From: Escherichia phage ZCEC14
DNA: 64,000 nt
Sequence record: OP168898.1
Direction: 5' to 3' (one strand)
The notes below the pieces were generated by a model. The model was not told the DNA's origin and did not search any database. It saw only the letters and a program-made list of their open reading frames with translations. Position 1 is the first letter of the stretch. Every line of letters starts with the position of its first letter. The translations under genes and the position numbers were made by a program. Of this stretch, positions 23,827 to 54,134 are shown one piece after another.

Positions 23827-24551
23827 ATGAAACTAATCTTTTTAAGTGGTGTAAAGCGTAGTGGAAAAGATACTACTGCAGATTTTATCATGAATAATTA
23901 TTCTGCAGCTAAATATCAACTTGCTGGTCCTATTAAAGATGCATTGGCTTATGCATGGGGCGTGTTTGCTGCAAACACTGACTATCCTTGCTTAACTCGT
24001 AAAGAGTTTGAAGGAATTGACTATGATCGTGAGACTAATTTAAATCTGACTAAATTAGAAGTAATCACGATTATGGAACAAGCATTTTGCTATCTTAATG
24101 GTAAAAGCCCAATTAAGGGTGTGTTTGTTTTTGATGACGAAGGACAAGAATCAGTTAATTCCGTAGCATTTAACAAGATTATTGACGTTATAAATAATAT
24201 TGAAGATCAATGGTCAGTCCGTCGTCTGATGCAAGCCCTAGGTACGGATTTGATTGTTAATAACTTCGACCGCATGTATTGGGTAAAATTATTTGCTTTA
24301 GATTATCTTGATAAATTTAACTCAGGTTATGATTATTATATCGTTCCTGATACCCGTCAAGATCATGAAATGGATGCGGCTAGGGCGATGGGTGCTACAG
24401 TAATTCATGTAGTTCGTCCTGGTCAAAAATCCAATGATACACATATTACAGAAGCTGGATTGCCAATTCGTGATGGCGATTTAGTAATTACAAACGATGG
24501 TTCTCTTGAAGAACTTTTTTCTAAAATTAAAAATACACTAAAGGTACTATA

Positions 24552-24552
<1 letters not shown>
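23827..24552 (+). CDS. 1: Deoxynucleoside monophosphate kinase
   Basis: 241 aa as T4 gp1; P-loop GVKRSGKDT; middle-promoter-like motif upstream. Confidence 0.9.
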
Positions 24553-25237
<685 letters not shown>

Positions 25238-25249
25238 TTTCACAAAGTT

Positions 25250-25282
25250 GTTTACATACTGATGAGGTAGTGATACTATTAT
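25250..25282 (+). promoter_or_regulatory. T4-type early promoter (GTTTACA -35, TGATACTAT -10-like)
   Basis: GTTTACA at 25250-25256, -10-like at 25271-25279, followed by RBS and ATG 25310. Confidence 0.6.
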
Positions 25283-25309
25283 CTCATCAAAATTAATTAG
25301 GAAAATAAA

Positions 25310-25618
25310 ATGAAAACATTTAAAGAATTTATCAATGAAGCGGCTGCGCCAAAGACATTCGTTATTAATACTCAGACGAGTCTTGACGATGAGTATGCAG
25401 AGGCAATTCTGAAGTCACTTGCTAAGAACGGCGTTGAAGTAATCGCTTCGGACTTTAAGAAAGGGGCTTCCGAGATGTTTATTTCTATAACTAAAGGATC
25501 TAAAGCTAAGATCAAATCATCATTCGGAGTTGCTCGTACCGATCAAATCGACAATCATGACTTTAAACAAACTGGCGTTAAACGGCAGAACACAATTGCA
25601 TCACGCGGAATAAAATAG
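25310..25618 (+). CDS. Internal-protein-like ORF with capsid targeting leader (MKTFKEFINEA)
   Basis: N-terminal leader resembles T4 ip CTS MKTYQEFIAEA; basic 102-aa protein; cassette promoter upstream. Confidence 0.7.
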   Translation: MKTFKEFINEAAAPKTFVINTQTSLDDEYAEAILKSLAKNGVEVIASDFKKGASEMFISITKGSKAKIKSSFGVARTDQIDNHDFKQTGVKRQNTIASRGIK

Positions 25619-25627
25619 TTTATAAAC

Positions 25628-25658
25628 CGTTTACTTTTAGATGGGGTAGTGATACTAT
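25628..25658 (+). promoter_or_regulatory. T4-type early promoter (cassette copy 2)
   Basis: GTTTAC 25628-25633 and GTGATACTATTACCCTATCAACTACTGAGGAGAATAAAATG module. Confidence 0.6.
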
Positions 25659-25686
25659 TACCCTATCAACTACTGAGGAGAATAAA

Positions 25687-25910
25687 ATGAAAACATCTAA
25701 AGAATTTATTGTAGAAGCTAAAAGACGCGAAGACGAACTGCCTTTTGTTTCAAAAACCTTTGATGGAACATTGTCTGATTTTAAAAAATTCCTAATGATA
25801 AACTTGCTAAATTGGTTGGTTCTATCAGTGAAAAAGGTGGCAAGGTCACATTTTCTGCTCAAGGTGTTGCCAATCTTAAAAAACTTTTGAAAGCCGCTGG
25901 TGTTGAATAA
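25687..25910 (+). pseudogene. CTS-leader gene (MKTSKEFIVEA) interrupted by a -1 frameshift at an A6 run
   Basis: Frame 1 ORF 25687-25890 ends in low-complexity tail; frame 0 from 25785 to stop 25908-25910 encodes KIPNDKLAKLVGSISEKGGKVTFSAQGVANLKKLLKAAGVE; A7 instead of A6 at 25783-25788 would fuse them. Confidence 0.55.
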
Positions 25911-25916
25911 ATCGTT

Positions 25917-25947
25917 TACATAGGGTTTTAGTTGTGATACTATTACC
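25917..25947 (+). promoter_or_regulatory. T4-type early promoter (cassette copy 3)
   Basis: GTTTACA 25917-25923, TGATACTAT -10-like, same RBS module before ATG 25972. Confidence 0.6.
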
Positions 25948-25971
25948 CTATCAACTACTGAGGAGAATAAA

Positions 25972-26157
25972 ATGAAACGTTGTGAATTAATTCGAAATGT
26001 TGCTATTGCAATTTCTGCTTCCGCTTTTAGTTTTTCAATGTTTGTTGGATTTATATGTGGATTATTAACTACAGCAGAAAATGTGTTTTCACTTGTAGTA
26101 GCATTTTTAATTGGTTTAATTGCTATCGTTATGGATAAAATTTCTAAAGGTGAATAG
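25972..26157 (+). CDS. Small hydrophobic membrane protein (61 aa)
   Basis: Two predicted TM segments; driven by the cassette promoter/RBS but lacks the CTS leader. Confidence 0.55.
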   Translation: MKRCELIRNVAIAISASAFSFSMFVGFICGLLTTAENVFSLVVAFLIGLIAIVMDKISKGE

Positions 26158-53511: not shown

Positions 53512-53958
53512 ATGATTACAGTAGATAAGTGGTTTAGAATTAATCGTGCTGATACAGGACTGTGTAATTACTGGCCGGAACTTAGTGCAGGTGCTGTCTT
53601 TAAAGTTCGTGAACTTGCAAAAGAATGTGAAGATGATATAGAGCCTGATACTGGAATTATTGAAATTGAACTTTCTGATGGAAAGATTATTAATATCTAC
53701 GATAAGCCAATTACATATTGGTGTTTGTGGAATACTGAATCAGTCGAAAATGGCGAAATTGAAGAAGTTGTAGAGCGAACTAATCAAGTTGTTCAGAAGC
53801 CTAAAGCCGATTTTCAAGGTGAACGTATTTCATACGCATTAGCTAAATTAGCTGCACAAGAAAATAACGATGGCTATGAAGGAAATTTAATGCAAGCTGC
53901 CGCAGAGTACATTGAATGGCTTGAAACTCAAAATTCTTTTTCTGACAGGGCATTTTAA
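53512..53958 (+). CDS. Hypothetical acidic protein (148 aa)
   Basis: ATG 53512; ORF-track start 53494 is TTG. Confidence 0.5.
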   Translation: MITVDKWFRINRADTGLCNYWPELSAGAVFKVRELAKECEDDIEPDTGIIEIELSDGKIINIYDKPITYWCLWNTESVENGEIEEVVERTNQVVQKPKADFQGERISYALAKLAAQENNDGYEGNLMQAAAEYIEWLETQNSFSDRAF

Positions 53959-54134
53959 TGAAAACCGAATTGGTTTATACTGAAAAGTTAAATGGCGGTA
54001 AGGTTTGGAAACTTTTTATTAAAGGACATTCTACGGACCCTCATATGACTACTTGCGTAGGAATCTATTCTCGTCCTACTAAAAAGATGATTCGACAGTA
54101 TAAACGATTGCATCGAATGTTTTACAATACTTGA
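53958..54134 (+). CDS. Hypothetical small basic protein (58 aa)
   Basis: ATG 53958 overlapping upstream stop. Confidence 0.4.
   Translation: MKTELVYTEKLNGGKVWKLFIKGHSTDPHMTTCVGIYSRPTKKMIRQYKRLHRMFYNT

What the first reader, a model, noticed from the sequence alone, without database searches (positions are those of the whole stretch)
25687..25910. Leader-bearing gene broken by a -1 frameshift in an A6 homopolymer
The frame from ATG 25687 runs into a low-complexity tail and stops at 25888-25890. A second frame opening at 25785 encodes a protein-like continuation (KIPNDKLAKLVGSISEKGGKVTFSAQGVANLKKLLKAAGVE) to stop 25908-25910. One extra A in the A6 run at 25783-25788 would join them into a 74-aa product. 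This is either a genuine pseudogene, a sequencing error at a homopolymer, or slippage-dependent expression.
Basis: seen in the sequence. Interest (0 to 1): 0.5.

Follow-up and report, generated by a model that had tools for sequence, protein, structure and literature searches.

The report
Frameshifted internal-protein gene ip8
A small accessory gene (ip8) of a T4-like phage, which encodes a protein packed into the phage head and injected with the DNA, has lost one A from a run of seven and is knocked out; this is an ordinary slippage mutation, not a recoding signal.

Summary
ATG 25687 opens a frame that stops at 25888-25890. A second frame runs to TAA 25908-25910. One extra A in the A6 run (25783-25788) joins them into 74 aa.

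The gene is ip8, an internal head protein gene first described in phage RB15. It carries the N-terminal capsid-targeting leader and its own promoter/RBS cassette. Every close relative examined has A7 and an intact 74-aa gene, and both halves are under purifying selection. VEc74 ip8 is identical apart from the missing A. The 67-aa product occurs nowhere among ~15 billion public proteins.

The window is phage vB_Ec_ZCEC14 (OP168898, positions 64001-128000), sequenced on Illumina MiSeq and assembled with SPAdes. Its authors annotated nothing at this site. No other gene in the 64 kb is broken by a small indel, and 52 of 57 aligned homopolymer runs match both relatives.

Most likely (~0.7) this is a real, very recent replication-slippage null allele of a dispensable accessory gene. 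A one-off consensus error (~0.2) needs the reads to exclude. Programmed frameshifting is not supported: there is no canonical slippery heptamer, no downstream structure (z = -0.04), and no relative shares the split. T-even homopolymers mutate reversibly at high rates, so A7 revertants should be present in stocks. Interest is low.

The parts
25629..25658 (+). Promoter-like element of the ip8 cassette: GTTTAC (25629-25634), then TG (25650-25651) and TACTAT (25653-25658)
   Evidence: Motif positions. It lies in a ~70-nt block repeated before ip7 (25245-), ip8 (25622-25692) and tRNA.4 (25907-25977). The two sister copies were picked up by the sigma-70-type scan. Reading it as a T4 early-type promoter is inference.
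25675..25680 (+). Shine-Dalgarno GAGGAG, 6 nt upstream of ATG 25687
   Evidence: Conserved in the repeated cassette block.
25687..25719 (+). Codons 1-11, MKTSKEFIVEA: capsid-targeting sequence (the 'leader') ending in the I-V-E/A prohead-protease-type site
   Evidence: The same leader type occurs on ip7 (MKTFKEFINEA). The CTS is defined as the first ~10 residues of T4 IPIII in PMC9026906. Disordered in the AF2 model.
25687..25788 (+). Codons 1-34 of ip8, still in the native frame
   Evidence: Identical to VEc74 ip8 over this stretch.
25783..25788 (+). A6 run, the site of the 1-base deletion (ancestral A7: AAA AAA ATT = Lys-Lys-Ile)
   Evidence: All 16 phage records sharing this stretch span 67 nt against the 66-nt query. 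It is the only gene-internal homopolymer in the window that differs in length from both reference genomes.
25789..25890 (+). Out-of-frame tail (33 codons, FLMINLLNWLVLSVKKVARSHFLLKVLPILKNF) and stop TGA 25888-25890
   Evidence: 64% hydrophobic against 42% for the native C-terminal part. The 67-aa product is absent from ~15 billion proteins.
25788..25910 (+). Stranded ancestral frame: codons 35-74 of Ip8 (IPNDKLAKLVGSISEKGGKVTFSAQGVANLKKLLKAAGVE) and TAA 25908-25910
   Evidence: This half is under purifying selection in relatives (pooled pN/pS 0.25). It holds 4 of the 5 predicted secondary-structure elements. No SD precedes the internal TTG 25812.
25310..25618 (+). Context: ip7, the intact neighbouring internal-protein gene (102 aa)
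   Evidence: phrog_2667 'internal head protein', E = 5e-41; exact match to Ip7 of several Tequatroviruses.
25972..26157 (+). Context: tRNA.4 homolog (61 aa), the downstream boundary of the internal-protein locus, with its own copy of the promoter/RBS block (25907-25977)

Best explanation
This is ip8, a CTS-bearing internal head protein gene in the polymorphic locus between 57B and the tRNA cluster of a T4-like phage (vB_Ec_ZCEC14). It carries a genuine, very recent 1-base deletion in an A7 tract (A7 to A6). The likely mechanism is strand slippage by the phage DNA polymerase on the homopolymer during replication (Streisinger-type). The allele then became fixed in this isolate by a bottleneck or drift, because ip genes are dispensable on hosts that lack the matching defence. 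As written, the gene is still transcribed and translated from intact signals. The product keeps the targeting leader and 23 native mature residues, then reads 33 nonsense, mostly hydrophobic residues. It loses four of the five secondary-structure elements of the ~60-residue domain, so it is a null allele. The lesion sits in a homopolymer, so rare -1 slips by RNA polymerase or the ribosome, or true reversion to A7, would each regenerate exactly wild-type Ip8. The allele is therefore expected to be slightly leaky and readily revertible. That is a by-product of the sequence, not a designed recoding signal. Shown here: the deletion, its uniqueness, the intactness and constraint of orthologs, the source genome and its sequencing platform. 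Inferred: that the base is truly absent from the phage DNA, the slippage origin, the loss of function, and the leakiness.
For: Identity: the gene is homologous to RB15 ip8 and lies in the same position, 57B-(ip5-ip9)-ip7-ip8-tRNA.4. phrog_8765 'internal virion protein' matches at E = 8e-23. Deletion: five relatives have A7 and a 225-nt CDS, and VEc74 is identical at the other 224 positions. All 16 records sharing the stretch are one base longer. Two metagenome contigs carrying the window's exact dNMP kinase have A7 and one substitution. The 15 listed members of the 21-member 90% Ip8 cluster are 73-74 aa, and the 67-aa product is not in the 15-billion-protein collection. Constraint in relatives: pN/pS is 0.19 and 0.25 for the two halves. 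Of 60 listed tblastn hits, 58 cover residues 1-74 in one frame. Not a dirty assembly: 52 of 57 aligned homopolymer runs have the same length as in VEc74 and G4498. The ip8 run is the only gene-internal run differing from both. About 90 ORFs that are open in each relative are intact in the window, and the other flags are start-codon artefacts or a common variant. There are no ambiguous bases. Platform: window coordinates plus 64,000 equal the ZCEC14 ORF table, and four exact proteins carry ZCEC14 accessions. ZCEC14 was sequenced on Illumina MiSeq and assembled with SPAdes. Plausibility: in T2/T4/T6, runs of 6 or more bases carry +/-1 indels at a mean of ~3e-4 in unselected stocks, and 10 of 15 TgvAB-escape mutants were +/-1 changes in A-runs of agt. 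T4 ip genes are non-essential, host-specific anti-restriction factors. The ancestral A7 would be one of only six 7-base runs in this 64 kb. Structure: the frameshift at codon 35 precedes H37-42, E45-50, E53-59 and H61-70.
Against: No raw reads could be inspected, and the paper lists only GenBank accessions and reports no coverage. The allele has accumulated no other change relative to VEc74, which is what a consensus error would also look like. The source paper's QC is not flawless: it reports 48.87% GC, while this 64 kb is 35.1%, and several products are misnamed. Another ip8 record (phage C6) is broken at a different A-run, and an early UFV-AREG1 version held a chimeric ip8 product. So errors at this locus do occur in deposits. 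Loss of function and leakiness were not measured.
Confidence: 0.72

Rival explanations
1. Consensus or assembly artefact: the phage DNA has A7 and an intact ip8, and one A was dropped during library PCR, sequencing or SPAdes assembly.
For: The lesion is a 1-base change in a homopolymer, with zero further divergence from the nearest intact allele. The allele is a singleton among all public copies. Depth is not reported and the reads are not listed as deposited. The paper's stated GC content is wrong for this sequence. Deposited ip8 sequences have been wrong or broken before.
Against: Illumina chemistry has no systematic indel bias at 7-base runs, and a consensus error would need most reads to be wrong (platform; the error behaviour is established knowledge). 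None of the other 50 runs of 6 or more bases in the window breaks a gene. 52 of 57 aligned runs match both references, and no other gene is frameshifted. That is unlike an error-prone assembly.
Confidence: 0.22
2. Programmed recoding: the A6 run is a functional -1 ribosomal frameshift or transcriptional slippage site, so that both a short form and full-length Ip8 are made by design.
For: Any -1 slip within the run (tRNA-Lys on AAA AAA, or RNA polymerase adding an A) yields exactly the native Lys-Lys-Ile-Pro junction. A-runs with tRNA-Lys are known shifty sequences in E. coli (established knowledge, e.g. dnaX A-AAA-AAG).
Against: No relative has the two-frame arrangement; all are in-frame. In frame 0 the site reads U-AAA-AAA, which is not a canonical X-XXY-YYZ heptamer, and it ends in AAA rather than AAG. 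The 82 nt downstream fold no better than shuffles (-14.8 kcal/mol, z = -0.04). No SD-like stimulator lies upstream of the run. A6 is shorter than the runs of about 8-9 or more bases known to give efficient transcriptional slippage (established knowledge). The shifted 33-residue tail has no homolog anywhere.
Confidence: 0.03
3. Adaptive loss or phase-variable switch: the null allele was selected (for example because Ip8 triggers or is useless against a defence in the uropathogenic isolation host), and the A7 tract serves as a reversible contingency locus for this injected protein.
For: The tract meets the operational definition of a putative contingency locus in T-even phages (SSR of 6 or more bases in an ORF). 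ip genes are host-specific counter-defence factors. A second natural ip8 allele (phage C6) is also off through a homopolymer indel.
Against: The tract is what codon usage gives by default: AAA is 79% of Lys codons, so P(A7 | Lys-Lys-Ile) = 0.62. It is interrupted (A6G) or absent in several lineages that keep the protein. Only 1 OFF allele at this tract was seen among roughly 20 close copies. No phenotype data exist, and Ip8's target is unknown.
Confidence: 0.1

Closest known systems
Ip8 of phage RB15 (Z35082, CAA84465.1; Repoila et al. 1994) and its orthologs, e.g. VEc74 QOI68320.1
   Same: Same gene, same position (after ip7, before tRNA.4), same leader, same promoter/RBS cassette. 224 of 225 nt are identical to VEc74.
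   Different: The window copy lacks one A of the A7 tract, so it encodes a 67-aa product with a nonsense tail instead of 74 aa.
T4 internal proteins IPI, IPII, IPIII (CTS-bearing, injected inhibitors of distinct GmrSD type IV restriction enzymes)
   Same: N-terminal MKT..EFI.EA capsid-targeting leader with an E/A processing site, small size, non-essential, and located in a polymorphic ip locus.
   Different: There is no detectable sequence or fold similarity of the mature Ip8 domain to anything of known function. The target of Ip8 is unknown, and packaging and injection of Ip8 were not tested here.
Homopolymer frameshift hotspots or 'contingency loci' of T-even phages (T2 agt A-runs, T4 rIIA A6; Gomez, Barrick & Waters 2025 preprint; classically Streisinger slippage)
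   Same: A +/-1 change in an A-run of 6 or more bases inside a non-essential, defence-related gene of a Tequatrovirus. It is expected to revert at high frequency.
   Different: Here only a single fixed OFF allele in one deposited genome is seen. No rate, reversibility or phenotype was measured, and the tract is no longer than codon usage predicts.
Programmed -1 frameshift sites (E. coli dnaX A-AAA-AAG; IS element transposases)
   Same: An A-rich Lys-Lys site where a -1 slip gives a defined longer product.
   Different: No canonical heptamer in frame, no stimulatory SD or downstream structure, and the out-of-frame arrangement is not conserved in any relative.
ip8 of Escherichia phage C6 (MW679410.1)
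   Same: An independent ip8 copy broken by a 1-base homopolymer indel, annotated only as a 46-aa remnant.
   Different: A different tract near codon 12 (GCTAAAAAAACAC against GCT-AAAAGACAC), an insertion rather than a deletion, and a Dhakavirus rather than a Tequatrovirus.

Membership tests
T-even internal head protein (Ip) genes | N-terminal ~10-residue capsid-targeting sequence resembling MKTYQEFIAEA, ending in a prohead-protease site (I/L-x-E, then A) | tested here: met
   MKTSKEFIVEA at 25687-25719. CTS definition from PMC9026906. Residue 4 is Ser rather than Tyr in this allele and in VEc74.
T-even internal head protein (Ip) genes | Location in the polymorphic locus between 57B and tRNA.4/tRNA genes, each ORF with its own conserved promoter/RBS block | tested here: met
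   Order 57B 24779-25237, ip7 25310-25618, ip8 25687-25910, tRNA.4 25972-26157. Repeated ~70-nt block. Same order in RB15, VEc74, UFV-AREG1 and G4498.
T-even internal head protein (Ip) genes | Sequence homology to a named Ip family | tested here: met
   92% DNA identity to RB15 ip8. phrog_8765 E = 8e-23 for the restored protein and 2e-07 for the 67-aa product.
T-even internal head protein (Ip) genes | Protein physically packaged in the head, processed by gp21 and injected with the DNA | not testable with these tools
   Needs virion proteomics or injection assays. Inferred only from the leader.
Pseudogene / null allele by frameshift | Reading frame disrupted relative to intact orthologs that are under purifying selection | tested here: met
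Pseudogene / null allele by frameshift | The lesion is present in the DNA of the organism, not only in the deposited consensus | not testable with these tools
   Reads are not available. Indirect support comes from the Illumina/SPAdes platform and an otherwise clean window.
Programmed -1 ribosomal frameshift site | Canonical slippery heptamer X-XXY-YYZ in the zero frame | tested here: not met
   Frame-0 codons are GAU UUU AAA AAA UUC. The candidate heptamers U-UUU-AAA and U-AAA-AAA each leave one tRNA mispaired at the first position.
Programmed -1 ribosomal frameshift site | Stimulatory downstream RNA structure and/or upstream SD-like element | tested here: not met
   Fold of 25789-25870: -14.8 kcal/mol against a shuffle mean of -14.68, z = -0.04. 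No GGAGG-like motif in the 33 nt upstream.
Programmed -1 ribosomal frameshift site | Two-frame arrangement conserved among relatives | tested here: not met
   All relatives are in-frame with A7, A6G or no run.
Transcriptional slippage site | Long A/T run (typically about 8-9 bases or more) with an out-of-frame downstream ORF conserved | tested here: not met
   The run is A6, and the arrangement is not conserved. The length threshold comes from established knowledge.
Phage contingency locus (Gomez et al. 2025) | Simple-sequence repeat of 6 or more bases within an ORF | tested here: met
   A7 in relatives, A6 here. Definition.
Phage contingency locus (Gomez et al. 2025) | Elevated, reversible mutation rate at the tract with a selectable phenotype | not testable with these tools
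   Needs deep sequencing of stocks and reversion or plating assays.
Phage contingency locus (Gomez et al. 2025) | Tract maintained beyond what amino-acid sequence and codon usage predict | tested here: not met
   P(A7 | Lys-Lys-Ile) = 0.62 from window codon usage. The tract is interrupted in QL01, WG01 and Mineola and absent in Merlin.

The most novel reading that the evidence does not exclude
The A7 tract of ip8 works as a natural ON/OFF contingency switch for an injected counter-defence protein. ZCEC14 would be a wild OFF-phase isolate, selected or tolerated on its uropathogenic host, whose stocks carry A7 revertants that take over on hosts where Ip8 is needed. Together with the independent homopolymer break in phage C6, that would make ip genes a class of phase-variable anti-defence cargo.
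Probability: 0.08. Interest if true: 0.5.

Novelty: new member of a known kind. Interest (0 to 1): 0.15.

Why it matters
There are three practical consequences:

- **Annotation.** The ZCEC14 record (OP168898) has an unannotated 353-bp gap at 89,619-89,971. That gap holds a frameshifted ip8 and should be marked as a pseudogene or re-checked.
- **Phage therapy.** ZCEC14 is proposed for therapy. Internal proteins are host-specific anti-restriction cargo, so a null ip8 could narrow the host range on strains carrying the matching, still unknown, defence.
- **A natural test pair.** Isogenic A6 and A7 phages would offer a way to find the target of Ip8, which has no assigned function.

Conceptually this adds nothing new. 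Homopolymer frameshifts in T-even accessory genes have been known since Streisinger, and a 2025 preprint has quantified them genome-wide.

Tried and rejected
- **Larger collections.** A pattern matching both A6 and A7 found nothing in metagenome contigs or genome contigs, so these gave no information. IMG/VR held no A6 copy and one A7 copy. A protein-guided IMG/VR scan gave only 7 loci, all intact and mostly the same isolates.
- **Independent assembly.** An exact look-up of gp5 found nothing on record. The dNMP-kinase look-up found three metagenome contigs of a related phage, not ZCEC14 itself.
- **Function of Ip8.** Pfam gave nothing above threshold. PDB by sequence gave nothing significant (best E = 0.05, a KH-domain protein). 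Foldseek against PDB gave no hit at E <= 0.001 (best 0.26, weak KH-like resemblance). BFVD returned only Ip8's own family.
- **Frameshift stimulators.** No RNA structure and no SD-like motif.
- **Downstream ORF as a separate gene.** Rejected. The ORF from TTG 25812 has no SD, would lack the targeting leader, and is only 32 aa.
- **Systematic homopolymer error.** Rejected. The many gaps against VEc74 are compensating pairs in divergent segments, not window errors.
- **Over-reading corrected.** I first read as showing that all 107 homologs are intact. Coverage of 80% or more would hide breaks near the 5' end, as phage C6 shows.
- **Paper not available.** Repoila et al. 1994 (PMC395341) is not held. 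An 'Ip7/Ip8' text search returned only inositol-pyrophosphate papers.

Full report
**1. The observation**

- ATG 25687 is preceded by GAGGAG at 25675-25680.
- The frame from that ATG runs through ...GAT TTT AAA AAA TTC... and stops at TGA 25888-25890, giving 67 aa.
- The A-run is exactly six bases, 25783-25788.
- The frame two bases ahead reads KIPNDKLAKLVGSISEKGGKVTFSAQGVANLKKLLKAAGVE and ends at TAA 25908-25910.
- Adding one A gives a 225-nt ORF of 74 aa.

**2. What the gene is**

The window is a Tequatrovirus (T4-like) genome, about 97% identical to its nearest published relatives. The local gene order is dNMP kinase, 57A, 57B, a 102-aa ORF, the broken ORF, then tRNA.4, tRNA.3 and the tRNA cluster.

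A DNA search hits the internal-protein locus of phage RB15 (Z35082; ip5-ip9-ip7-ip8) and many Tequatrovirus genomes. In those genomes the homologous ORF is annotated 'ip8', 'internal virion protein' or 'internal head protein'. The restored protein matches phrog_8765 'internal virion protein' at E = 8e-23. The upstream neighbour matches phrog_2667, the Ip7 family, at E = 5e-41.

Both start with the MKT.KEFI.EA leader. In T4 IPIII the first ~10 residues form the capsid-targeting sequence, which directs the protein into the prohead and is removed by the prohead protease (PMC9026906).

Each of ip7, ip8 and tRNA.4 sits behind its own copy of a ~70-nt block: GTTTAC, about 17 nt, TG-n-TACTAT, then GAGGAG and ATGAAA. 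The ip8 cassette's expression signals are therefore intact.

**3. The lesion**

I aligned the window with five relatives: VEc74, UFV-AREG1, Salmonella phage F13076, RB15 and the Dhakavirus VR5. All five have a 225-nt CDS with A7 where the window has A6. VEc74 is identical to the window at all other 224 positions.
- All 16 phage records containing this 66-nt stretch span 67 nt.
- Two metagenome contigs that encode the window's exact dNMP kinase carry A7 plus one substitution.
- The 15 listed members of the 21-member 90%-identity Ip8 cluster are 73-74 aa.
- The window's 67-aa product is not among ~15 billion public proteins.
- In more distant homologs the tract is A7 (Klebsiella phage kv_tblp2), A6 followed by G and in frame (QL01, WG01, Mineola), or absent (Merlin). 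The reading frame is preserved in all of them.
- Of 60 sampled tblastn hits, 58 cover residues 1-74 in one frame.

Both halves of the gene are under purifying selection in relatives. Pooled pN/pS is 0.19 for codons 1-34 and 0.25 for codons 35-74. The window therefore carries a singleton 1-base deletion (A7 to A6) in a gene that is otherwise conserved.

**4. Consequence for the protein**

An AlphaFold2 model of intact Ip8 was built from 9 sequences (mean pLDDT 77.5, about 85-90 over residues 21-70). Residues 1-13, the leader, are disordered. A compact domain follows, with E20-26, H37-42, E45-50, E53-59 and H61-70.

The frameshift at codon 35 removes four of these five elements. It replaces them with 33 residues that are 64% hydrophobic. 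The product would still carry the targeting leader, but it cannot form the domain, so I infer a null allele.

The function of Ip8 is unknown. There is no significant Pfam, PDB-sequence, PDB-fold or BFVD match outside its own family. By analogy only: T4 Ip1, Ip2 and Ip3 are non-essential injected proteins, and each inhibits a different GmrSD type IV restriction enzyme (PMC12373910).

**5. Real mutation or artefact?**

*The rest of the window is clean.* I compared all 64 kb with the syntenic regions of VEc74 and G4498.
- Of 57 aligned homopolymer runs (A/T of 6 or more, G/C of 5 or more), 52 have the same length in both relatives.
- The ip8 run is the only gene-internal run that differs from both.
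- About 90 ORFs that are open in each relative are intact in the window.
- The other flagged cases are artefacts of longest-ORF start calling, with the real starts intact, or a ~140-nt segment near pinA that 195 other phage records share.

The assembly therefore shows no homopolymer-error signature.

*The source and platform are known.*
- Four window proteins are exact matches to proteins of Escherichia phage ZCEC14: UVD33424, UVD33425, UVD33427 and UVD33433. The last is found only there.
- The ORF table in the ZCEC14 paper equals window coordinates plus 64,000. For example, ORF199 87827..88552, ORF202 89310..89618 and ORF203 89972..90157.
- The window is therefore OP168898:64001-128000.
- The authors annotated nothing between ORF202 (ip7) and ORF203 (tRNA.4), so the broken ip8 lies in an unannotated gap.
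- The genome was sequenced on Illumina MiSeq (Nextera, 150-bp paired reads) and assembled with SPAdes into one contig (PMC10873995). By established knowledge, this chemistry does not systematically miscall 7-base runs.

*Real slippage at such runs is common in T-even phages.* A 2025 preprint reports:
- ±1 indels at a mean frequency of ~3e-4 across 168 runs of 6 or more bases in unselected T2 stocks;
- 10 of 15 defence-escape mutants carrying ±1 changes in A-runs of agt;
- reversion 1,000 to 10,000 times more frequent than for point mutants.

The ancestral A7 would be one of only six 7-base runs in this window.

*Caveats.* Reads are not listed as deposited and depth is not reported. The paper's stated GC (48.87%) is wrong for this sequence, which is 35.1%. 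The allele shows no further decay, which fits either a very recent mutation or an error. I put a real mutation at about 0.72 and an artefact at about 0.22.

**6. Programmed frameshifting or slippage**

Any -1 slip inside the run, by the ribosome or by RNA polymerase, would recreate exactly the native Lys-Lys-Ile-Pro junction. Some leakiness is therefore expected. Nothing marks the site as a designed recoding signal:
- The zero-frame context (U-AAA-AAA or U-UUU-AAA) is not a canonical heptamer.
- There is no SD-like element upstream.
- The downstream 82 nt fold no better than shuffled sequence (z = -0.04).
- A6 is short for efficient transcriptional slippage.
- No relative shares the split arrangement.

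**7. Contingency-locus reading**

The tract meets the preprint's operational definition (a run of 6 or more bases in an ORF). A second natural ip8, in phage C6, is broken by a +1 indel at a different A-run and is annotated as a 46-aa remnant.

The evidence against a selected switch is stronger:
- AAA makes up 79% of Lys codons here, so a Lys-Lys-Ile peptide is expected to be encoded as A7 62% of the time.
- Several lineages keep the protein with the run interrupted or absent.

There is no sign that the tract itself is maintained as a switch. This remains the most novel reading not excluded, at a probability of about 0.08.

**8. Verdict**

It is an ordinary event: a recent homopolymer frameshift that knocks out a dispensable, CTS-bearing internal-protein gene in one phage isolate. 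The gene is unannotated in the deposited record. Interest is low (0.15). The practical value is a corrected annotation and a possible natural tool (A6 against A7) for finding Ip8's target.

Noticed in passing
whole window (= OP168898 positions 64001-128000): The window is Escherichia phage vB_Ec_ZCEC14. The published ORF table equals window coordinates plus 64,000. Several products are misnamed there: dNMP kinase (23827-24552) is called 'primase', and 57B/Acb1 (24779-25237) is called 'distal tail protein'. The paper's stated GC of 48.87% disagrees with 35.1% measured here.
   Followed up: yes
L016:440-460 (Escherichia phage C6, MW679410.1, about 72,700): An independent ip8 copy is broken by a +1 indel that creates an A7 run near codon 12 (GCTAAAAAAACAC against GCT-AAAAGACAC in relatives). 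Only a 46-aa remnant is annotated (QVW28295.1).
   Followed up: partly
protein P0039 (UniRef entry for UFV-AREG1, 101 aa): An earlier version of the UFV-AREG1 record encoded a chimeric Ip8: native to ...GSISE, then an unrelated tail. The current record (KX009778.4 / NC_031030.2) has the normal 74-aa gene, so this locus has been mis-assembled and corrected before.
   Followed up: partly
window 53947-54086: A ~140-nt segment is absent from VEc74 and G4498 at the 3' end of the pinA-like gene. In the window the gene ends at 53958, and a 58-aa ORF (53958-54134) takes over the ancestral last 17 codons. The same arrangement is present in 195 phage records, so it is a common natural variant.
   Followed up: yes
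window 25238-25971: The internal-protein locus here holds only ip7 and ip8. RB15 and VEc74 have ip5-ip9-ip7-ip8, G4498 has ip9-ip7-ip8, and VR5 has ip8-ip9. This fits cassette shuffling between the repeated promoter/leader blocks.
   Followed up: partly
window 25696-25701 (codons 4-5 of ip8): The leader reads MKTSKEFIVEA (Ser4, Lys5) in the window, VEc74 and the two metagenome contigs, against the usual MKTYQEFI. Residue 4 is reported as important for capsid targeting in T4 IPIII (PMC9026906), so packaging efficiency of this allele lineage may differ.
   Followed up: no
window 34864: One T is missing relative to both VEc74 and G4498 in the spacer between the RBS and the ATG of a 179-aa gene (TTAGAGAGAA-GAAATG against ...GAATAAAATG). 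It lies outside the coding sequence and might alter translation initiation.
   Followed up: partly
model mf929a063781b (intact Ip8): The predicted beta-alpha-beta-beta-alpha domain gives weak, non-significant resemblances to KH domains: PNPase KH with TM about 0.55 and E about 0.3, and a PNO1 sequence hit at E = 0.05. This is a lead at most.
   Followed up: partly
window 25837-25849: A terminator-like hairpin (GTGGCAAGGTCAC followed by ATTTTCTGCT) lies inside the ip8 coding sequence. It was the single hit against 0.5 expected by chance, and it is conserved only as coding sequence.
   Followed up: no
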